DNA from: the human T2T-CHM13v2.0 reference genome, Homo sapiens
DNA length: 64,000 bases
Direction: 5' to 3' (one strand)
Assembly (NCBI RefSeq): GCF_009914755.1
Contig: NC_060935.1
The position numbers were made by a program, and so were the translations under genes. The notes beneath the pieces were generated by a model. The model ran no database searches. It saw nothing but the letters and a program-made list of their open reading frames with translations, and was not told the DNA's origin. Positions 12,398 through 59,106 of this stretch are shown piece by piece (within the stretch, counting starts at the first letter, position 1; each line of letters opens with the position of its first letter).

Positions 12398-12899
12398 ACC
12401 TCAAAGAAGTAACACAATTTTCTTGGAAGAGGGTGTATTTGAGAAAGATCTTGAGAAATGAGCAGTATGGTAGTGGGTAGGGAATGGTCATCCTAAGGGG
12501 ACAGCATAAGCAAAGTTAGGGAGGCCAGGAGGGAGAAGAACTTAGGAATGACGAGTAATCTGGTATGAGTGTTTGTGTGTTAGGATAGGGGATGGGAATT
12601 GTAGTCCTTAGGAAAAAAAGAGAAGTTAAGTTGGATTAAAGTACAGAGGGCCTTGAAAATCATGTTAAGATAGCTATTCTTTCTTTCATAAGTTATAAAG
12701 CATCATGTTGAGATGTGTTCTAGAATAGCACTTCTGGCAGTACAGTGCAGAAAAGGTGAGAGAGGGTTCCACGAGGTGTAAGTATTTCAAAAATTCTAGA
12801 TAACAGAAAATAAAGGTCTGAATCAAAACAGTGGCAGTTGGGAAAAAAGGAAGGAAAGAGGGAAGGAAGGAAGGAAACAAGGAAGGGATGGAGGAAGCC

Positions 12900-13635
12900 A
12901 AGTATTTAACATGTATCTATCATGTGCCTGGCATTATTCAAGATTCTGGGATATAGTGGTGAACCTGACAGATAAAAATCCCTGGCCCTCATGTAGTTTC
13001 CATGGATGATACAAGTAATAAATAGTAAACAACAACTGAAAGATTAGGATTAATTAAGACAGAGATAAGTGTAATGAAGAAAATAAAACAGGGTGAAGTG
13101 CTAAGGAAGTGCCTGGAGGAGACAAGACAAGATTGGAAAACCAGAGAAGACTGACTGTGGAGGGGATATTTGGGCTGAGATCTGAATCGTATGAAGAAAC
13201 TAGCCATGCAAAAATCTAGGGAGTCAAAGGCCTTAAGGTGGAAGACACTTAAAGAGCTTTCAGAGCAGAAAAGATCCAGAGTGGCTGAAGCCTGGGGAGT
13301 AAAAGGAAGGTGATATGGGTGAGGCTGGAGATAACAGGGTTCCAGTTATTCTGAACTATCCAAGACTGTTCAGCAGCAGGATGCCTTCATTGCTTTATGT
13401 TTTGAAAAGAATAGACTAGAAATCAGTTAGGAGGCTATCTTAATAGTCTAGTCTAGAGCTGATGGTGGCTTGACCTAACATGGTAACCAAGGAGATGAAG
13501 AGAAGCATGCAAATTCAGGATATATGCTGGAAGTAGAAGTGATTGGAGTAGATTCAAAATTAAACATGGGAGTGGCAAGGAAAAAGAGGAATCAAGATTA
13601 ATTTGTAAGTATGGATTGAGAAACTAGGTGGATGA
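12900..13635 (-). mobile_element. L2 LINE 3' fragment
   Basis: 'agtatttaacatgtatctatcatgtgcctggcattattcaagattctgggatatagtggtgaac...' continuing through typical reverse L2 sequence. Confidence 0.75.
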
Positions 13636-16955: not shown

Positions 16956-19184
16956 TGAAATTTTCTATGATCCAATAAATTTCATTTTCTGCTACACCAG
17001 TTTGAGGTGAGTTTTCTGTTACTTAGAAGAGTTCTGACAAACACAGAAAGCTTTTGTGTGGCCTATTTCAGGCTCAAAAAGAGTAAGAAGAAACAGCCAA
17101 TGCCTGGGTTACAATTATGCATATGAAAAAAAAAACTGTAATAAAATACACCAAAATGCTTGCTGGTGACATTGTGGATAATTTTTTAAAATTTGTTTTA
17201 AACCTTTCTTGTTTTTCCACATTAAATATGTACTATTATTATAATCAGAAAAACTATTATAAGTAAACATTAGGAGACGGTCATTGCAAAGTGACTCCTG
17301 CAGGGTAAATATGGCACAAATTCATTAGTAGAGTGCAAGTAAAAGAGGATTTGTAATATGTACCCAATAGCAAACAACAAGACAAATACCACTTAAATAT
17401 TTCTCCAAAGAACGCTTTTTTACTGTGCCACTTTACTCCCTGGGGGTAAAGGTCCTTATTTCTCAGGAAGGTCTGGAACCTTGGAGATGGGGGTCTTTTT
17501 GCTCAGAGGGTCTTATTTTTGCCTGTTGTGCGTTTCATGGGAATCAGGAGAGGAGGCAAACAGATGGGAGTGGCAAACTAATGCTCCTTGTTTTTCTTCC
17601 TCCCTCACAGTCTCAGAGCTCCCCCACTTAGAAATGAATAACTTTTGAACCCCTAGCTGGAAGTCACCCCACTTAATAGCTCTAAAGCGTGGAAAAAATA
17701 ACAACAACAAAATACTATCAGTCTTTATATAGGGTGCCTTAGACGATGGTGCTGAAATGAAAGAGGCAATGAGAAATTGTTCCCCAAATTAGGGATAAGG
17801 CAGTTCAGATTTAGAATCTGCCAACAAGTAAAGGCCTTAAAAGTGATCTAATCCAACCCCCTTATTTTATAGACATGAGAAGTGACTCAAAGAGAATCAA
17901 GGTGATTGGCCCAAGGTCACACACCTAGTTCATGGTAGGGCTTAGATTTGACAATAGATGTCTAGATTCTTCTGCTCCATTATCTTAGCTGAAGAACAGT
18001 GGCGAAACTATTGCTTTTGCTACCAGCTATGCTGACATTGCCAGAATTCACATTAAATGCTTCCAAGTTGCCTTTTTGTTGCAAGACAATCTTGTAGGCA
18101 GTATACATACATGAATGTCTATATTTGTAACAAGAACAACAGATGCCAATTTGGACTGGCACCATCTTTAGATTGGGAAGAAGGTAGATGTTAAGAATAT
18201 CCACTATGGTATTTAGGATAAGAGTGACAGAGTTCATGGACTGATATTTAGTAACTTCAATATTAACTCCTTAAAACAGGAATGCAATTATGAATATGAA
18301 AATTAAAAAGCAGACTATAGAAATTTCAAGTTGTGGGAAGATTTTTCTCTCATAGGTGGCAAAAAATTAGGCAGACATTGGGGATTTCGTGAGAAATATT
18401 GCTAACTGATGATGGAAGATATCTCCAAGCTAAGTCCTAGGGCAAATACTTACTTAGGTCATCTCCTTGGGCAAGGTGCATTGACATTCAAAAGGATAAC
18501 TTGGGTTCCTGGGAACTGCTCAATCATCTGAGTTTCTAAGACTCAATTAGGATAACTGTATGCTATTGTTAAAGTAGAAAGCAAGACTCAAGATTTTATT
18601 TTTAAAAAGTTTAAACATTTTTTAGAAAACAAAAGTGTATTTGGAATTTATCCTAAGATAACTAGGATATCAAATTAACTAGACACCCCATTCCTTTTTC
18701 TGATCCTTTTAGGTAATTTGTGTCCTCCAATGCACAAAACGGTAGCGGTCAAAATTGTACAACAAGCTGCAAAAAGGGGCAGCTTCAGATGTTATTGCCA
18801 CTAGATTTAGAAAAATGGATCTGTATAGATCAAAATTCTCTAGTGAGCAAATGCACTCACCATCCTACACCATTTTCTCAGAAGCATAAATGTTCATTTA
18901 TCCAATTAGGCAAAATTTTAAACGAGTCACTGAACGTAAACTAGAGGGAAAGAACGGCTAGGATTGTAAAGCAGATCCAAGAACAAATATTTAAACTATA
19001 AAATAGAGCTGGGTTACTTCAGAAGTGCATTCAAAAGGAAGAGGAAGACAATCCAACAGGGAGCAGGTGGCTGGAACATCAATGGGTTCAGGGAGTGGAC
19101 AGGTCAGTAGTGATGCTTTGATAAAGAACAAAGAATCTGAAAAAAACAATGGGTGAGTTAGGGAATATTTGTGGGTTTTTTCCT

Positions 19185-19348
<164 letters not shown>

Positions 19349-19411
19349 TGAAAGCATTTTTGTTGAAGTCATTTCAAGAGGCTAATCTATATACTTTTTT
19401 AAAAGATGTTT

Positions 19412-19870
19412 TCTGATAGTTGTACATAGTTCTGAACTCAGTATCTGTTCAACAAACACTTACTGAGCACCAACCAAGTTCTAGGGAATCAAAGATAGCA
19501 AATAGTTTTCATCTATACTTGAAGCCATTGCTTCCCACTGGTGTCCTCTTTTCCACATGAGACCACCGGCTATGTAGATTGCCTTATCACTTATTAAAAT
19601 TTTGCCCATCCTTCATCACACATCTCCTGAGCCTGCTTCTTGGTGAAGCCCTCCCTGATCATTCTAGCCAGCTGTGTTCCCTTGCCTTGTGAGGTCTCAT
19701 GGTATTGAGTGATGGCATCTCACAAACTTGTTATCTGAGGTCTAGCTTGTTGGCTATTTGTAGACATGTCTTTGGTACCTCTGTCCCAAAATCATTAGTG
19801 ATTATAACTTCCTGGAAGACAGGAAACATATTGCAACAAATTTGGTATAGAAAAAGAACTTGGAACTTTG
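19412..19870 (+). repeat. Inverted repeat, left arm (459 bp)
   Basis: Reverse complement of 20828-21282; I count about 8 substitutions and one 4-bp indel; ORFs 19699+ and 20799- give near-identical peptides. Confidence 0.97.
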
Positions 19871-20715
19871 GAGTCCCAGTGTTGGAGATACAAGGATGAA
19901 CAACACAAAGGTCGGTCTTCATTGTGTTTACAGTCTAGTGGTGAGGATAGTAGGCTACAATTGCTCTAGTGAAGATCACTTGATTCCATATGTGGTGTCA
20001 GGAAGGAAGATGCAGGTGCAATGGGAACAGATTATAGAGGAGCCTAATTTGGCTCGTAAAGTCGGTGGTTTCTTTAAGGAAATGGTGGTTTCAGCTGAGT
20101 CTTAAAAGATACAAGCTATCTGGAAGAATTCAGGTGGGATAGAGCTTTCCAGGCTGATAGGACATCATGTGTGAAGGCCCTGAGGTATTCAAGAAGCAGA
20201 CAGAAAGCTGGTGTGACTCAAACCTAAAGAGTTAGTGAGGGAAAGTGTGATGTGAGATGAAAGAGCACATGTGTTACGTTAACCAGAGGCCTTGAAGTTG
20301 TTTTAAAGACTGGAACAACTGGAAACCTCTGGAAGATTTGGAAGATAGCGACCTGTTCAGCTTTGTGTTTTAGAACAGTCACTCTGAATATAGAGTGGAG
20401 AATCGATCAGAGGTAGGCAAGAGTGGATGACCAGTTAATAGACTCAGAATATTCCACATGAGAGATAGCAGGGTCTTGAAAATGGTAATTTAGCATGGTG
20501 GAAAGAAATAGTTGGCTTTGAAACCCATTTGGGAGACAAAATCAATGGAACTTTGTGACTGATTAGATATGAAAGCAAGGAGAGGTAGTTGTCAAAAATG
20601 TTTCCTGGATTTTGTCGTGAGCCACTGAATAGGGTGCTGATCAATGAAATGGCAAACACACCGGGTGAGCCAGTTTGGCAGAGCTAGTGAGTTACATGGT
20701 GGCCACATTTAACTT
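19871..20715 (-). mobile_element. L2 LINE fragment forming most of the inverted-repeat spacer
   Basis: 'gtgttggagatacaaggatgaacaa...tttacagtctagtggtgag', 'catgtgtgaaggccctgagg', 'tttagaacagtcactctg' are reverse L2 motifs. Confidence 0.72.
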
Positions 20716-20827
20716 CACAGCAGCACTTCAGATGAGAAAAAAATGAGATTCAGATAAATTAAATGACTCCTTATTTTCACCATTAAGGATAATACTGATC
20801 AGGTGGGAAGTTCAGACTTCCTGATTA

Positions 20828-21282
20828 CAAAGTCCCAAGTTCTTTTTCTATACCAAATTTGTTGCAATATGTTTCCTGTCTTCCAGGAAGTTATAATCAC
20901 TAATGATTTCGGGACAGAGGTACCAAAGACTTGTCTACAAATGGCCAACAAGCTAGACCTCAGATAACAAGTTTGTGAGATGCCATCACTCAATACCATG
21001 AGACCTCACAAGGCAAGGGAACACAGCTGGCTAGAATGATCAGGGAGGGCTTCACCAAGAAGCAGGCTCAGGAGATGTGTGATGAAGGATGGGCAAAATT
21101 TTAATAAGTGATAAGGCAATCTACATAGCCGGTGGTCTCATGTGGAAAAAAGGACACCAGTGGGAAGCAATGGCTTCAAGTATAGATGAAAACTATTTGC
21201 TATCTTTGAGTCCCTAGAACTTGGTTGGTGCTCAGTAAGTGTTGAACAGATACTGAGTTCAGAGCTATTTACAACTATCAGA
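20828..21282 (-). repeat. Inverted repeat, right arm (455 bp)
   Basis: Runs from 'caaagtcccaagttctttttcta' to 'acaactatcaga', the reverse complement of the left arm. Confidence 0.97.
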
Positions 21283-21364
21283 TCTTATATATCCCAGATC
21301 CTCCCAGTAGAGGATCTGGGATATATAAGATCTGATAGTTGTAAATAGCTCTGAACTCAGTATC
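21249..21364. repeat. Perfect hairpin: 55-bp stem, 6-nt loop (ccagta)
   Basis: 21249-21303 is the exact reverse complement of 21310-21364. Confidence 0.97.
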
Positions 21365-21412
21365 CTCCCAGTAGAGGATCTGGGATGTATAAGAAGTTTC
21401 TGTAAGGTTTTT

Positions 21413-22168
21413 AGTCTCAACCAATAACACTCAACATGCCCTTCTTATAACAAGTATTTTGTAGTACAAACTTTCCTATCCTGAAATGAAAATCATGGAT
21501 AAAATAATCTGCCTATACTCACAGTTTCAAAAAAAATCAATTGTGATGTTTTAAGTGTGAGGAAAAGACTAATTAAAAGAAAAGTAAATGATAACATGGT
21601 ACATATTTTAGTATGAGATTGCTAGTAGGTAAGCACCCTAGAAGACATTATGAAGGAGTCAGATACTTGCAATGACACAAAGAATATCCAGGAATGTAAC
21701 ACATGCAGACTGACACAGGTGCCATTCTTAAATTCCACGAGTTATGTCACCTTCCATCACGTAATTTTTTTTAAATGGTAAACAACTTTTAGTAGAGTTA
21801 TTCTTTTAAATTACAAACAACTTTTGATTTACATGGAAATTGTGTTCCTGGAACATTTAGTGTATATTAAAACCTTGAAAATAAATGAATTTTTATATAT
21901 GCAAAATGGAATTTGATGTTAGACTCAGATAAATATAGCTATGTTTCTTTCTCACGTATATGAATAATGAGTGGAACATTAGAAAATTATGTGGAACACT
22001 AACAGTTTTTTACTTGGCAAGATTATATTATACTTTTCAAAGTACCTGGCATCCCTGACCCTTGTCTAATAAATGTTGATATTGCTCTCTCAAATCAATA
22101 AAAAATGTCCCCACAATTTTCCAAAACATTACCCCAGGGGTGGGACTGCTTCTATTGAAAACTATTGA
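21413..22168. mobile_element. hAT-Charlie DNA transposon remnant (MER20B-like)
   Basis: End 'ccccaggggtgggactgcttctattgaaaactattg' and internal 'cctggcatccctgaccc...aaatgtccccaca' resemble the MER20 family. Confidence 0.5.
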
Positions 22169-24415
22169 CATAAAGCATGATTTCATATCACTGAAAGGTT
22201 TAAATTTTTACTTTGCATATAGTAGCAAGGTTTAAAAAATCTCGTGAATGAATGGGATACAAAAAGTAAATTTTCATAAAACAGTAATTTCCATGATGCT
22301 AGTACAATGAATAGATTTCTTTGCTAAGTCCAAGTTGAAGAGATCAGGCTAGGACAGCAAATATGGGCAGCTGCCATCTTTTACCAGGTGTAAATAGGGA
22401 GACATGTTTATTTTCTCTTGTTCTGCCAACATGAATTAAGCATCTCCTAGCCATGAGGTCTATGCTGAGGCTGCGGGATCCACAGTGACATACAACAGGC
22501 TTCCCACACGGCAGTTACACCAGGAAGGGACAAAGTATTGAAAAAGAAATGGAATGTATTCAGCAGTTTGGCAGTTAACAGAGCTCATAAAAAATGACTT
22601 TCCCTTAAGACAGTTTTTACTGGGTTGTGTTTTTATTGAAAATCCTAGTTTTTCTCCTGAGAGAATCATTCTGCTGGAGCAACAAGCAGAAACAAAGCAG
22701 AGTGGGTGACATCCAAGAAATGACTTTGGAGCCATAATGTACCTATCCTACACAATAAACACCGTCACTTCATGTAAACTGGCAAGAGTGGGGTAAGAAA
22801 CTGGCTAATATGGAAATCACTCTAACACTTCTCAGTTCTACAGATGTAGTCTTAAACAGACAAACAAACAAAACTCTACAACCATAGTGACATGGAAACA
22901 GGTTGCTGGATTCAGCAGGAAGGTTGACAGGCAGTGAACATTTATGTTAAGAATATTCCCAGCAAACTCTTTCCACCTCTGGGTTTGACACTGGCTCTCA
23001 ACTAGGGAATGCTGCTAAGGGATAGAGTGCTGGGTAACAGGGTGGCCCTGTCACAGCAGCCAGCATAAACCCAATGGCTGAAATAAAAAACCATGATTTA
23101 CTCACTTACCCTGTACATATTTACAGAACACCCACTATGAGCCAGGCACTGTTTAGCTGCTAAGTTATAATATTAAATAAGGTACATAGAGTTCTGCTTA
23201 TAGGCATTTCCATAACACAAAATAAGTATATAAATAGGTCAACATATATGTCAATATCTATAGTGAAAAGTATTAAGAAAAGAATAAAGCAGTGTAATGT
23301 GCTGATGGGTGACTGGAAGCGCAGATAGGAAGCTATCTGTCTGGGGTGATCAGTGAGGATGTCTACTGCATTGTCAGGGATCATTTGTGTCTGAGATGGT
23401 GACCTAGGAGCTGAGATTTGAATGGCAACAATATTCACTTAACCAGAGTCCTCATCGCAAAATGTTTGGGCCCAGTGAAGTGGGTCTCATAATGCTGGGT
23501 CCCTTAATTCCTAATAGAATTGGGAAGTAGGTAGGAGATGCCTGTGTTTCTTCTTTAACTCAATAAGTACATCCTAGACTCCTAGGAGACAACATAGTAT
23601 ACTGCAAAAATCTCGGGACTGGACATTTGGAAACCTGGATGCTAGTTCTGATGTCCCTTGATAATAGGCTGAGTGACCTCAGGCAAATCATCCATCAGGC
23701 TGGGTGTGTTTCCATAATATGAAAACAGACTGTACACTCCATAAGAGAAGACATTGTGTCTGAATTGTTACCTGCTGTCTCTCCAGCACCCAGCACACAG
23801 TATCTGGCAATGGTGAGTGCCCAATGGAAGCTATTATTGTTGCTTTCATTATTAGCTGATAGGTATGATTCCTTCCCATCCCAAAACTCTAGTACTTTGG
23901 CTCAATCTCCTTGTGATAACAACACCCCCCACCACCAAAAAGAGAAATAACAAGAAATTTATTTCTGAGTTTGCCACATCTGGCTACATTACACAGGGGC
24001 TAGTCCCTTCTTTCTGGGACTCATTTCCCCTCATCCATAAAGTGAAGAAGTTTATCTCAGCAATTCATCCTGGCTCTAGAATTACAGATTTTTAATTAAA
24101 TTCTGCAAATAAAATTGTATTTCAAATACACTAGGGGGACCCCGTGGTGAATTTTAAAATAAACATGTAGTGGAATTATTTCCCAAAGCAAAATGTATCA
24201 TTTTCGATACTATTATTTTAATCTGGGTCTTATTGCATAAGAATGAGCTTTCTTAGAGGAAGGCATCACTATTGCTTGCTTCTATTAAGCTCTCAGGGTC
24301 ATTTCTGGCTCTTGCATAACACCCTAGGCTGTTAAGGAGAGAGATGCGAGCACAAGAATTTGGCACTCTCCTGAAAGCTACGTTCTGTTTTGGAAATGGA
24401 CATTTACTTTCTTAT

Positions 24416-34146: not shown

Positions 34147-34710
34147 TGTATTTGTTGTCTGTTGCTGCACAACAAATTAGCAACAAGTTGATTGCTTAAA
34201 AAATACACACTTATTATCTTATGGATTCTATGTGTAAAGATCCACACATGACTTAGATGAGTCCATTACTTAGAGCCTTGTAATGTTGCAATCAAGGTAC
34301 CAGCCAAGTTGTGTTCTCATCTGGAGGCCCAACTGAGGAATAATTTATTTCTAAAGTCATTCAGATTTTTGGTAAAATTTATTTACTTATTGCTCCAGAG
34401 CTGAGACTTCTGTTTTCTTGTTGATCTGGTCAGAGGTCTCCTTCAAATTCCTAGAAGCTGCCCTTAGCTGTTTGCCACTGGACTTTCTAACACAGATGCT
34501 TATTTCTTCAAAGCCAGCAAAGGAACTAGTCTCTGAAGTGAGTCTGATAGCAAGATGGGGTCTTATTTAATGCAACATAATCACAGGAGTGCCATATTCC
34601 ATTTTCTATAGGCATGTCACAGGTCCCACCCACACTCTACAGGAAGGATTAGACAAAGGCATGGACACTAGAAAGTGGGCATCATGAGGGCCCACCTCAT
34701 GTCTGTCACA
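34147..34710 (-). mobile_element. MLT1 (D/E-like) solo LTR
   Basis: 'tgtatttgttgtctgttgctgcacaacaaattagcaacaa' to 'tgtctgtcaca'. Confidence 0.75.
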
Positions 34711-35214
34711 GTGGCCAAAGAAGGCCAGAATAAGGGAATATTAAAGCCATGACCTAAATGAAGCAAGAGAGAAAACCATATAGATACCTGGTGAAAGATA
34801 CATGCAAGCAGAGAGAATGGTAAATTTAAAGACCCTGAGACCAAACTTGCTTGGTAAGTCAAGGAAAAAAAATTGGCTGGAGCAGATTGAGCAGAGGAGA
34901 GAGTAATACGAGGTGAGCTCAGAGGGATACTGCAGAGCCAGGTCATACAGGGCTGTGTAGGACTTGATAAGAACTTTGGAATTTGAGTGAGATGGGATGA
35001 TTAAAGTGTTTAAAGCAGACGGCTGTCATGATTTGGCTGTCCTGTGGTGTATAAACTATGTGAAGAGGTGGCAAAGAAAAGGAGAGAGAGCAGTTAGGAT
35101 TCTATTTAATGATAGAGGCAACAGTGGTGGCTTTTTAGACCAGGATAGTAAAAGTATCAGTCAGCCTGAAAAATAATCAGATCACAGATATACTTATAAA
35201 GGAATGTCCACCAG

Positions 35215-35400
35215 TGTGTTAGGCTGTTCTTGCATTGCTATAAAGAAATACCTGAGACTGGATAATTTATAAGGAAAAGAAGTTTAATTGGCTCACAGTT
35301 CTGCAGGCTATACAAGGATGGCACCAGCATCTGCTAGGCTTCTGGGGAGGTCTCAGGTAGCTTTACTCATGGTGAAAGTTGAAGTGGAAGGGGGCACGTT
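35215..35400 (-). mobile_element. MSTB-like LTR fragment
   Basis: 'tgtgttaggctgttcttgcattgctataaagaaatacctgagactgg...ggctcacagttctgcaggct'. Confidence 0.85.
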
Positions 35401-35585
35401 GTAGAAGTTCATAGGTAAGGTCAATGCTGGAAACGAAAATTTGGTAATTATCAGCATGTGGATGGTATATAAAACCACGAGACTTGGAGTGACTTGGGGA
35501 GTCAGCATTGATAGAAAGGGAAAAACTGATATCTAAATCTTGAGCTAGGGAGATGAGGAGGATTCAGCACAGGATGTTAAAAACG

Positions 35586-35779
35586 AAAAAAAAAAAAATT
35601 AACTTTTTTTCAATAATGTGTTGCAGCTTTTTGTACATATGGGATATTTTTTCTTACATTTATTTTTTGTTTTTAGATGATTGTTGTAAGTGGCATTGTG
35701 TCTCAAATTTCACTTTCTAATTATATTTAGTATATAGAATTAAAACTGATTTTTGTCTAAAAAAAAAAAAAAAAAAAAA
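35586..35779 (+). mobile_element. Short retrotransposed insertion (candidate orphan 3' transduction)
   Basis: TSD aaaaacg (35579-35585, 35780-35786) at TT/AAAA; A13 + 160 bp + ATTAAA (35739-35744) + A26 run. Confidence 0.75.
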
Positions 35780-37877
35780 AAAAACGGAATGACCACAGAG
35801 GTAGGAGAAGCAAGAGAGTGATGTCTTGAAAGCCTGGAAGTCTGGGAGTGTGTCAAAAAGGAGAGAGAGATCAACTGTGTCCAATTATGCTAATAAGTAA
35901 GAGGAAGAGTGAGAATTGACCATTGGCTTTAGCCACATGGGAGCCATTGGTGACCTTGACAAAAGGGTGGTAGGCAGAAAAGACGAATTGGAATGGCTTC
36001 AGTGGAAAATGGAGGGAAGAAATTGGCATACAAAATACAGACGACTTTTTCTGAGAAATTGCCCTGTAAGTGGAGAGAATAATAGGTCATCACTGGAGGG
36101 ATGTATGTCAAAAGGTCACTTTTTGAAGATGGGAGATAGTCACATTTGCGTGCTGATGGGCATGACCCATTAGAGTGAGAAAAGTTGAAAATGCAGAGAT
36201 GGAGAAGCAATAGCAATAGCTGGAGTAAAGACTCTGAGTATGAAGAGGGGATGGAAATAGTAATGCTTCATAGAGTTGAGGGGAGGCTATAATGAAATGC
36301 TCTGTGTAAGACCTCAGAATGATACCTGATGCATGACAGTTGGTCAGAAAATGATACCTTTTACTATTATTATATAGTAACTTGGGGCAGGTGAGAGGGT
36401 AAAAGGACTCCTCAAATTCAGAAAACTCAAAGTTGAGATTAGAAACAAGTGTAAGTGGCATGACTGGTGATAAGAAAGCACAAGTCAGAAACTAGGATCA
36501 TTGAGGCAGTTCAATTTCTCCAACTGGGAGAAGCAGGGAAGCAACAGGCTACAGTGTCAAGTGCAAATAGCTTTTGCCTCGTAATATGGTCTCTCTCCGT
36601 CAGTAACTAGCTGCACAATAATAAGCAAGTCCCTGAGTCACTTTATGCCTCCATTTTCTCTCCTATAAAAGGAGTCTGGTAATACTCATTCTCTTGGTTT
36701 GAAACATGATTTCTAAGAAGCCGGCAAGGCTAAGCAGGAGAAAGTAGTTTAAAGTAGTGTTCTGCAAATGAGAGTTGTTTTCAGGAAGAGGTGTTTCAAA
36801 TAGCAGAGAAGTGGGGATTCCAAAGACTCCCTAGGGTGAGGAAAAACAAATACTGTACTGTATACAATAGGTCCTTGAGTCAGAAGGGAGGGGAGGGCGA
36901 GAAGGCAGAGTGGTATTCAGGGATCAGGAGTCAAACAGCAATTAAGGGAACAAAGGTCAGCTGGATGATAATTACAGGCAGTTAGGGAGGGAATTAGAGC
37001 TAGAGAGGTACTAATTACATGGGCCATTTAGACAAGGGTGGGGCTTCGCCTAAAGGAACAAAATGAGGGCTGATTACCTGCTAAAAATAAAGGCTGCCCC
37101 TCGGAGCCAGGGCTCACACATCTGGCATAGTCCCAGGCAGCACGAGGCTGTGTTCTCTGCTTTGCAGTGCCTACTCTGCTTCTAGTGTGGGCAGAACGTG
37201 CCTCCACCCTTCCCCAAGTACTGACATAAGGTCTGGGAGCTGTCTGTGGATCACTCCCTAGCTCTGTAGGAGATGGTGGCGTAGGGGAGAAGGGCTTGGA
37301 GATAAAGCATCAAAATTGGGTACACCAGTCAATCAATATAATCAGTCTAGGGGCTGGCTGTGCCCTGCAGAAGGATGCCAACCAGGAGGGCCACAGGGAG
37401 TGAAACCCAGGCCATATTTTGTTCTTTGTGCCAGTGCCCTGAAGTGGGGCTGTACCTGCTGGAAGGAAGGGGTACCTTTCCTTTATTTTCATTAAGTTGC
37501 TATATGGACTATCTCAGTCCTGTGGCCAATGCAAGAAATTTGGCTCAGCTTTCTGAGGGGCTGGTACTGTATCCTCTATTTCTTCAGATCACTTTGTGAG
37601 GTCATTATTCTCCAGTGGGGGCTTGTGGGAGAGGCAGTGGAGGCAGAAAGCGCATGCCCAGACCATATTCTCCCAGCTCAGTCAGGCTTCTCTACCTCTG
37701 ATTGAACCTGTACTCACTGTGAAGCTTCCTGGGCCACCTGTATCCAGCAGCTGACATGGATGATTTCTCTCATACTTGTGAAGATTCTCTGATGGTAAAA
37801 TAGACTACCATATATTAAGACCTCTGTGTGCTTCATTTCATATTCTTACCATTTTGGGGGTGGTTGTGTTTTTTCTT

Positions 37878-57689: not shown

Positions 57690-58745
<1,056 letters not shown>

Positions 58746-59106
58746 CTAGGGCTTAGTAGGAGAATTAGCAAGCAACCTTCCTTGTAGAAGGGCACCTTAA
58801 CAAATGTAATAAAATGAAAATATTATTACCTGAATAGTAAGCACAGAATTCATCTTAGGGAGGGAACTGTCTCTGAGAAAATATCTCAAAAACTTCAAGA
58901 AAGACTGTTAGGTACTGAGACCATAGGAGGGAACAGGAGGCTTTGTGATAAAATGACACAGTTAAGCTTTATTTTCAAGATTCAATAAGATAAATTATGT
59001 TTTATTTTGGGTCTGTTTCTCAAAAGTTGAGAGACAGCAGGGAGATGAGAGCCTCAGATAGAAGAGAGGAGTCAGAGAAGTGGATTGTGGAGACATCTCT
59101 CGAATT

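What the first reader, a model, noticed from the sequence alone, without database searches (positions are those of the whole stretch)
19412..21282. Young ~455-bp inverted repeat whose arms appear to be reciprocal chimeras (serial template switching; candidate invertible 957-bp segment)
Seen: arms 19412-19870 and 20828-21282 are reverse complements (about 8 substitutions and one 4-bp indel) around a 957-bp spacer, in a neighbourhood of heavily decayed L2/MIR, so this is a recent local event and not a TE family. Old repeats reveal which copy is native. The outer part of the LEFT arm (a, to about 19489, 'ttcaacaaacacttactgagcacc...ctaggga') is an L2 3' end that continues in the spacer start ('...gtgttggagatacaaggatgaacaa'). 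The inner part of the RIGHT arm (b, from 20828) continues a MIR that begins in the spacer (about 20729-20855). Inference: ancestral L-a-S-b-R became L-a-rc(b)-S-b-rc(a)-R, so each arm is part native and part copy. A single duplication or a staggered-break inversion would not give this order. Several polymerase switches including a fold-back on the nascent strand (FoSTeS/MMBIR-like) would. Such arms are known substrates for NAHR inversion and gene conversion, and would form ~450 bp of dsRNA if transcribed.
Basis: partly seen in the sequence, partly recalled or inferred. Interest (0 to 1): 0.8.

Follow-up and report, generated by a model that had tools for sequence, protein, structure and literature searches.

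The report
Two-part inverted duplication splitting an L2
A real, one-off pair of 455-base inverted copies about 57 kb from BDNF, most likely left by a DNA copying machine that jumped between strands several times; it is a tidy example of a known kind of mutation, with no sign of function.

Summary
Arms 19412-19870 and 20828-21282 are reverse complements with 8 substitutions and one 4-bp indel, around a 957-bp spacer. The whole T2T genome holds only these two copies.

A home-made L2 profile, trained without this region, aligns as one hit (E 4.5e-30). L2 runs 19448-19489, is interrupted by 383 nt, and resumes at 19873. The interruption is the inner part of the left arm to within 0-2 nt. So the insertion and the inverted repeat were made together, and each arm is part native, part copy.

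Only a weak MIR core lies wholly in the spacer.

These fit serial template switching.

Arm divergence gives about 9-18 million years. Inversion of the spacer, dsRNA and editing are untested. Three inversion catalogues I could search list nothing here. This is a new member of a known kind, of modest interest.

The parts
19412..19489 (+). Outer part of the left arm (A = X + a). About 20 nt of non-L2 flank plus the terminal L2 3' end (a, 19448-19489). Read as native here.
   Evidence: L2m profile positions 140-181 align to 19448-19489 within the single E 4.5e-30 hit. An earlier profile gives E 2.4e-4 for this piece alone. L2 copies mostly start at profile positions 105-126, so the L2 end lies near 19430.
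19490..19870 (+). Inner part of the left arm, rc(b). A 381-nt inverted copy of 20828-21208 inserted into the L2 3' end. No target-site duplication. Its termini are CAAAG and CTTTG.
   Evidence: It falls in the insert state of the L2 alignment (19490-19872). Arm alignment. Junction strings.
19871..20708 (+). Spacer start: the L2 body resumes (profile 182-1011 from 19873). Positions 19871-19872 (GA) are ambiguous. With the end of a they form a quasi-palindrome: a end CTAGGGACT (right-arm copy), S start GAGTCCCAG.
20729..20768 (+). Weak MIR-core-like stretch, wholly inside the spacer.
   Evidence: MIRm profile positions 108-145, E 0.14. Smith-Waterman z 4.3-4.6, 0 of 200 shuffles.
20828..21208 (+). 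Inner part of the right arm (b). Inferred native source of the left-arm insert. Repeat family unresolved (L2-like at best).
   Evidence: Arm alignment. Against the L2 profile there is only a 47-nt hit, E 0.053. Glocal z 2.1-2.7, with the reversed-sequence control nearly as good. No relatives in about 350 kb of sampled DNA.
21209..21282 (-). Outer part of the right arm, rc(a) + rc(X). Inverted copy of 19412-19489. Carries the 4-bp deletion relative to the left arm and to the L2 profile.
   Evidence: A local L2 alignment of this copy ends at profile position 181, exactly at 21209..
21249..21364 (.). Nested perfect palindrome: arms 21249-21303 and 21310-21364 (55 nt, 100%), loop CCAGTA. Its right arm holds a third copy of X (21331-21364). 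That copy is identical to the right-arm X and differs from the left-arm X at 2 of 34 sites.
   Evidence: DNA fold -66.8 kcal/mol, z -19.9, 0 of 200 shuffles as stable.
21298..21394 (+). 33-nt direct repeat U1 (21298-21330) and U2 (21362-21394), 32 of 33 identical, flanking the third X. The two copies here are the only ones in the genome.
   Evidence: Genome pattern search with up to 3 mismatches of 28 finds 2 matches, both here.

Best explanation
This is a fixed-looking, locus-specific complex rearrangement, not a mobile element and not a gene.

Inferred ancestral order: flank-X-a-S-b-R. Here X-a-S is one antisense L2 3' region with about 20 nt of flank, and b lies about 1 kb downstream.

Two mirror-image inverted templated insertions share the same pair of switch points:
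1. An inverted copy of b (381 nt) was written into the L2 exactly between a and S, at the centre of a short quasi-palindrome. Synthesis then resumed at the departure point with no loss of L2 bases.
2. An inverted copy of X-a (74-78 nt) was written after the end of b.

The simplest path is replication-based template switching (FoSTeS/MMBIR type). The first insertion creates a 381-bp inverted repeat. The nascent strand copying one arm can then pair with the other arm and copy across the first junction into X-a. This extends the palindrome outward and explains why the second junction is the reverse complement of the first. The return to the right flank stuttered, leaving a fold-back palindrome (55-nt arms), a third X and a duplicated 33-mer.

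Shown: the anatomy, the uniqueness in the genome, the split L2, and the coincidence of boundaries.
Inferred: that b is native on the right, the order of steps, and the use of replication rather than break repair.

No function is indicated. The present-day consequences (hairpin or cruciform potential, a possible NAHR flip of the 957-bp spacer) are possibilities only.
For: - Arms are 455-459 nt with 8 substitutions and one indel. There are only 2 copies in 3.1 Gb, and the spacer is unique.
- An independent L2 profile (83 sequences, target region blanked) aligns in one hit, E 4.5e-30: 140-181 = 19448-19489, a 383-nt insert, then 182-1011 = 19873-20708, with no deletion states at the break.
- The insert equals the inner arm segment 19490-19870 within 0-2 nt.
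- The right-arm copy of a, in a different context, ends its local alignment at profile position 181, at 21209, which is the b|rc(a) junction.
- There is no direct repeat at the insert flanks. Instead the flanks are mutually reverse-complementary (CTAGGGACT / GAGTCCCAG), and b has the inverted termini CAAAG...CTTTG.
- The right edge holds a perfect 55-nt-arm palindrome, a third X, and a 33-nt duplication joined through shared ATCCTC and ATC. The 28-mer of that duplication occurs nowhere else in the genome.
- In the four-point notation of Walker et al. 2021 (PMC7954356, passages read), the two parts are a 1-4-3-2 and a 3-2-1-4 event. The paper names these as the patterns that make single inverted repeats.
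Against: - No outgroup or second haplotype could be examined, so the ancestral single-copy state is inferred, not seen.
No other repeat could be shown to cross that point: b is not convincingly L2, and a deeper L2 profile finds nothing in 20400-21400 at E up to 100. So there is no direct evidence that b is native on the right.
- Abutting profile positions on either side of an HMM insert state are partly by construction. The independent support is the absence of deletion states, the matching lengths, and the separate local alignments.
- The L2 consensus has an internal direct repeat near the break, so the exact break could shift by a few bases.
- No clear microhomology is seen exactly at the rc(b)|S junction.
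- The structure is symmetric under a flip of the spacer, so several histories give the same end state.
Confidence: 0.62

Rival explanations
1. Simple inverted duplication. The left arm (X-a plus a 381-nt older insertion of unknown origin in the L2) existed long before. One event then copied 19412-19870 in inverted orientation to a site 957 bp downstream. The whole right arm is copy and the whole left arm is native.
For: It needs only two switches. No repeat could be shown to cross 20828, so the native status of b on the right is unproven. A 7-pair mini-hairpin sits exactly at 19861-19878 and could have been a stall site that set the copy boundary.
Against: The copy boundary (19870) would have to coincide within 0-2 nt with the edge of an unrelated older insertion (19872/19873). 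My estimate of that chance is roughly 1%. The insert has no target-site duplication, no A-tail and no recognisable repeat family. No third copy of b exists as a source.
Confidence: 0.13
2. Multi-step break-and-join history. The segment S-b was inverted between the a|S and b|R breakpoints. The breakpoint-spanning 459 bp was then duplicated in inverted orientation at the other breakpoint. Later the spacer was flipped back by NAHR between the arms. The end state is identical to the one observed.
For: The structure arm-spacer-rc(arm) is symmetric under spacer inversion. A 455-bp repeat at 98% identity exceeds the 50-250 bp minimal homology quoted in PMC8755829 (passage read). Both breakpoints lie at short palindromic sequences.
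Against: It needs three independent events at the same two points. The classical staggered-break product has the order a-rc(b)-rc(S)-rc(a)-b, which is not seen, and a single NAHR does not convert it to the observed order (worked out by hand). The clean re-entry into the L2 with no lost bases and the stuttering right edge fit copying better than end joining.
Confidence: 0.13
3. Assembly or sequencing artefact (a chimeric fold-back read incorporated into the assembly).
For: The perfect small palindrome at 21249-21364 resembles fold-back artefacts.
Against: The large arms differ at 8 sites plus an indel and are separated by 957 bp of unique L2 sequence. An artefact would give identical arms. I could not inspect reads.
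Confidence: 0.03
4. A DNA transposon or other mobile element with long terminal inverted repeats.
For: Terminal inverted repeats around an internal segment.
Against: There is a single locus in 3.1 Gb. The interior is an ordinary decayed L2 that continues into one 'terminal repeat'. There is no target-site duplication at 19411/19412 versus 21282/21283, and no ORF of 85 aa or more (7 stop-to-stop frames of 60-84 aa).
Confidence: 0.01

Closest known systems
Template-switch mutations under the four-point model (Loytynoja and Goldman 2017, recalled; Walker et al. 2021, PMC7954356, passages read)
   Same: A stretch of the descendant is the reverse complement of nearby sequence and is written in at a departure point, with return to the original template. 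This creates an inverted repeat. The two parts here have the 1-4-3-2 and 3-2-1-4 point orders. A pre-existing quasi-palindrome lies at the switch point.
   Different: The scale differs: 381 and 74-78 nt were copied from 1.3-1.8 kb away, against tens to hundreds of nucleotides in that work. Two mirror events share their switch points, plus a nested fold-back at the edge. No ancestral sequence was available here.
Inverted-repeat-mediated template switching in DUP-TRP/INV-DUP rearrangements (Carvalho et al. 2011, recalled; Grochowski et al. 2024, PMC11293582, search listing and abstract only)
   Same: One junction is guided by homology between inverted repeats. The other junction is made without long homology. 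Template switches are iterative.
   Different: Those are kilobase-to-megabase pathogenic copy-number gains with a triplicated segment. Here the repeat itself is being built, the size is sub-kilobase, the copy number is two, and the structure is old and apparently neutral.
Inversions with inverted duplications at both breakpoints (staggered-break model of Ranz et al. 2007; dupINVdup of Brand et al. 2015; both recalled)
   Same: Two segments at two breakpoints are each duplicated in inverted orientation.
   Different: The expected order is a-rc(b)-rc(S)-rc(a)-b. The observed order is a-rc(b)-S-b-rc(a). The arms here are full reverse complements of each other.
Fold-back inverted duplications and short templated inverted insertions at breaks (PMC3907307, PMC10622511, PMC11724301; search listing and abstracts only)
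   Same: The 55-nt-arm perfect palindrome with a 6-nt loop at 21249-21364 looks like fold-back priming at a short native hairpin (ATCCTC / GAGGAT).
   Different: The large arms are separated by 957 bp and are not a fold-back at a break end. There is no terminal deletion or dicentric history.
IR-mediated polymorphic inversions in humans (Aguado et al. 2014, PMC3961182; Giner-Delgado et al. 2019, PMC6748972)
   Same: A unique segment lies between inverted repeats of high identity.
   Different: The repeats listed in the passages I saw are 2.7 kb and larger, against 0.46 kb here. This locus is not among the chr11 entries of those papers, nor in the T2T inversion tables of PMC10150506. Both orientations have not been observed.

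Membership tests
LINE L2 3' region (for a + spacer) | Significant collinear match to a profile of independent L2 copies | tested here: met
   The L2m profile (83 sequences, built from genomic loci found by three motif searches, with the target region blanked) gives E 4.5e-30 over 19448-20708. The name 'L2' for this family is my recall. The tools carry no repeat names.
   There is only a core match at 20729-20768 (E 0.14). Adding the arm does not raise the score (49.5 in both cases). An anchored tail alignment is no better than random sequence. The test has low power for a decayed tail of about 20 nt.
Four-point template-switch event | The descendant segment is the reverse complement of nearby sequence, inserted with return to the departure point | tested here: met
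   rc(b) fills the L2 gap and L2 resumes without deletion states. rc(X-a) follows b.
Four-point template-switch event | The pre-event ancestral sequence is seen in a related genome | not testable with these tools
   No primate genomes are held. The L2 profile serves as a proxy for the left insertion only.
Four-point template-switch event | Short range (template within tens to hundreds of nucleotides) | tested here: not met
   The template lies 1.3-1.8 kb from the insertion points (coordinates). The range definition comes from PMC7954356.
Staggered-break inversion / dupINVdup | Order a-rc(b)-rc(S)-rc(a)-b, with the spacer inverted relative to both native flanks | tested here: not met
   The observed order is a-rc(b)-S-b-rc(a). 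The L2 orientation of a and S is the same.
DNA transposon with terminal inverted repeats | Multiple copies and a target-site duplication | tested here: not met
   2 of 2 genome matches are the two arms themselves. The spacer is unique. The outer flanks differ.
NAHR-invertible segment (polymorphic inversion) | Inverted repeats of high identity longer than the minimal homology | tested here: met
   455 bp at 98.2% identity.
NAHR-invertible segment (polymorphic inversion) | Both orientations seen among haplotypes | not testable with these tools
   Only one haplotype is held. There is no entry at this place in the sources searched. In one search, 12 of 14 supplementary files were searched.
microRNA precursor (small palindrome) | Rfam match at or above the gathering score | tested here: not met
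   mir-2329 scores 47.2 against 90, mir-458 36.5 against 59, and mir-3167 32.3 against 86. This is generic hairpin resemblance.

The most novel reading that the evidence does not exclude
The locus records the birth and stepwise outward growth of a palindrome. A first inverted templated insertion at a quasi-palindrome created a 381-bp inverted repeat. That repeat then templated its own extension across the first junction, and a further fold-back is visible at the edge. If ape genomes hold the intermediate (rc(b) inserted but no rc(X-a), or the reverse), it would be a dated, base-resolved series showing that inverted repeats grow by self-primed template switching. If human haplotypes carry both spacer orientations, it would also be one of the smallest NAHR-flippable cassettes, upstream of BDNF.
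Probability: 0.2. Interest if true: 0.55.

Novelty: new member of a known kind. Interest (0 to 1): 0.33.

Why it matters
Most template-switch rearrangements are known either as tiny mutation clusters or as large pathogenic copy-number changes. This one is intermediate in size, old enough to be shared among apes, and unusually legible. A decayed L2 acts as a built-in ruler that shows which bases are native and which were written in. It therefore offers a clean case for testing how inverted repeats arise and grow. If the spacer flips in the population, it would also test how short an inverted repeat can be and still drive inversion. There is no evidence that it affects BDNF or any gene.

Tried and rejected
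- Single-sequence nhmmer of the spacer and the arm against the window found nothing but self. Pairwise comparison is too weak for decayed repeats.
- Two first L2 alignments made with MAFFT were contaminated by Alu or were too loose and were replaced by iterative nhmmer profiles. The profile had the window's own spacer in its training set. I use it only for the piece a, which was not in it.
- The first MIR profile drifted to Alu and was rebuilt after masking young repeats.
- An overlap alignment of b to the L2 consensus degenerated to end overlaps and was redone.
- Extending the L2 profile from one long copy failed because there were too few long copies. A deeper profile from 12 extra loci carries an Alu in its last third. 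It found no L2 in 20400-21400, so it could not test continuity across 20828.
- The left flank 19330-19411 has no significant similarity to the right-edge sequences (score 15 against a shuffle mean of 15.2). The idea that the 33-mer is a copy of the left flank was dropped.
- The difference-free 207-bp stretch in the arms is not significant evidence for gene conversion (P 0.07).
- The bacterial promoter/terminator scan is irrelevant to a human locus, except that it flagged the mini-hairpin at the junction.

Full report
**Observation.**
- The repeat finder reports two inverted pairs that are one arm pair split by an indel.
- A global alignment gives arms 19412-19870 and 20828-21282 with 8 substitutions, one 4-bp indel (19451-19454, left arm only) and a 957-bp spacer.
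- A DNA search of the whole 3.1-Gb assembly finds the arm twice, both times here (E 7.9e-241 and 1.5e-221), and the spacer once.
- It is therefore a local duplication and not a repeat family.
- Arm divergence is K = 0.0178. That gives 8.9-17.8 million years for rates of 1.0e-9 to 0.5e-9 per site per year (95% range from the count, 3.8-34.6 My), if no gene conversion occurred. The rates are my recalled values.

**Is the left arm part native?** No repeat library is on hand, so I built one.
- A 14-mer from the spacer occurs 215 times in the genome against 14 for the reversed control.
- A recalled 17-mer occurs 980 times against 0.
- I took the 60 loci cut around the first matches, masked young repeats, and blanked window 19300-21500. 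I then iterated nhmmer from the best seed to an 83-sequence, 1051-position profile. I call this family L2 from memory.
- Scanning 18500-22500, the profile gives one alignment, E 4.5e-30. Positions 140-181 match 19448-19489. A 383-nt insert state follows (19490-19872). Positions 182-1011 then match 19873-20708.
- So one L2 3' region runs from the outer left arm into the spacer, and it is interrupted by the inner part of the arm.
- Abutting model positions around an insert state are partly by construction. The independent points are three. There are no deletion states at the break. The inferred insert length (383) matches the arm segment (381). The right-arm copy of a, which sits next to b and not next to S, ends its own local alignment at profile position 181 exactly at 21209.
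- L2 copies mostly begin at profile positions 105-126. So the first 20 nt or so of the arm (19412 to about 19433) are non-L2 flank, and the arm tip is not simply the L2 end.

That leg of the argument fails for lack of signal.
- A MIR profile (96 sequences) finds only the core at 20729-20768 (E 0.14).
- Smith-Waterman against its consensus gives z 4.3-4.6 (0 of 200 shuffles). The score is the same with or without the arm (49.5), and the arm start alone scores at chance.
- An alignment of 20769-20860 anchored to the MIR tail is matched or beaten by 24-62% of 1000 random genomic segments.
- I also asked whether b is L2 and whether the first L2 runs on into b. The profile gives only a 47-nt hit, E 0.053. 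Glocal alignment gives z 2.1-2.7, with the reversed sequence scoring almost as well. b has no relatives in about 350 kb of sampled DNA. A deeper L2 profile finds nothing in 20400-21400.

**The boundary coincidence settles it well enough.**
- If the left arm had been an older composite that was simply copied, the copy could have ended anywhere. In fact it ends at 19870, 0-2 nt from where the L2 resumes. I put that coincidence at about 1%.
- If the right arm were wholly native, the a carried into the left arm would have to end at the very L2 coordinate where S begins. That is also a coincidence.
- Only the reading in which rc(b) was written into the L2 as part of making the repeat needs no coincidence.
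- No third copy of b exists as a source.

**Junction anatomy.**
- The insert has no target-site duplication.
- Its two L2 flanks are reverse complements of each other: a end CTAGGGACT in the better-preserved copy, S start GAGTCCCAG. The switch therefore happened at the centre of a short quasi-palindrome.
- b begins CAAAG and ends CTTTG.
- The end of rc(b) reads GGGACTTTG in the right-arm version, which resembles the departure site GGGACTG. That may explain why copying stopped there (inference).
- Relative to the L2 profile, the 4-bp indel is a deletion in the right arm. At 19488 the right arm keeps the profile base. So both arms have changed since the event.

After rc(X) comes, in order:
- a 21-mer Y;
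- the loop CCAGTA;
- rc(Y);
- a third X (21331-21364);
- a second copy of a 33-mer (U1 21298-21330, U2 21362-21394; 32 of 33 identical).

The stretch 21249-21364 is a perfect palindrome with 55-nt arms. As single-stranded DNA it folds at -66.8 kcal/mol, z -19.9. The pieces overlap by ATCCTC (Y with U1) and ATC (X with U2). The native 33-mer itself contains a 6-bp hairpin, ATCCTC/GAGGAT, around the same loop. The 28-mer core of U occurs only at these two places in the genome. The third X equals the right-arm X and differs from the left-arm X at 2 of 34 sites. Zero differences in 55 nt is not significantly younger than the large arms. This stuttering edge is what repeated dissociation and re-priming would leave.

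**Mechanism.**
- In the four-point notation of Walker et al. (PMC7954356, passages read), the left insertion is a 1-4-3-2 event: leave at 19489, copy 21208 back to 20828, return at 19871.
- The right addition is a 3-2-1-4 event: leave at 21208, copy 19489 back to 19412, return to the right flank.
- The two events share their switch points.
- The economical account is that the first event made an inverted repeat, and the repeat then guided the second. A nascent strand copying one arm pairs with the other arm and copies across the first junction. Both could belong to one replication episode.
- Because arm-spacer-rc(arm) is symmetric under a flip of the spacer, an inversion-plus-duplication-plus-flip history gives the same end state. 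It cannot be excluded from one haplotype.
- The classical staggered-break order, a-rc(b)-rc(S)-rc(a)-b, is not what is seen.

**Function and polymorphism.**
- Nothing is annotated here. Rfam gives only sub-threshold hairpin look-alikes for the small palindrome, plus the Alu/SRP match at 19215-19331.
- The longest stop-to-stop frame is 84 aa.
- I found no inversion at this place in three sources. These are the main text of Aguado et al. 2014, whose chr11 entries lie at 0.30, 70.9 and 116.5 Mb; 12 of the 14 supplementary files of Giner-Delgado et al. 2019; and the two held supplementary files of the T2T inversion study PMC10150506.
- Those methods would mostly miss a 1-kb flip, and supplements I could not see may list it. 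My GRCh38 and hg19 coordinates were estimated from the BDNF offset and were not lifted over.
- Invertibility, gene conversion (longest clean stretch 207 bp, P 0.07), dsRNA and editing remain untested.

**Verdict.** It is a well-preserved, mid-sized example of a known mutational process, with no evidence of function.

Noticed in passing
window 21249-21394: A perfect palindrome (55-nt arms, 6-nt loop CCAGTA) lies next to a 33-nt direct repeat and a third copy of the arm tip. It folds at -66.8 kcal/mol as DNA. It resembles miRNA hairpin models only below their thresholds. The 28-mer core of the direct repeat is unique to this locus in the genome.
   Followed up: yes
window 19481-19489 with 19871-19879, and 20828-20832 with 21204-21208: The L2 was broken at the centre of a short quasi-palindrome (CTAGGGACT / GAGTCCCAG). 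The inserted segment has 5-nt inverted termini (CAAAG...CTTTG). A 7-pair mini-hairpin spans the junction at 19861-19878.
   Followed up: partly
window 19190-19340: An Alu fragment lies immediately left of the structure (Rfam SRP match at 19215-19331, 57.3 bits, below gathering). It twice contaminated my home-made repeat profiles.
   Followed up: partly
window 12899-13542, 22902-23424, 34685-35134, 35388-35958, 58220-58780 and others: Many further decayed copies of the same L2 3' region lie in the window (profile E 1e-74 to 1e-10). The pair 34685-35134 and 35388-35958 may be one long L2 near the annotated enhancer at 36456-37322.
   Followed up: no
window 22421-22487: A weak L2 3'-end-like match in the same orientation, about 1.1 kb right of the structure (E 0.096). 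It may be chance.
   Followed up: no
loci L026-L028 (chromosome 1, 120-146 Mb): Three of the 30 L2 anchor loci are near-identical to one another over 2 kb or more, so they lie in a pericentromeric segmental duplication. Two were dropped from training.
   Followed up: no
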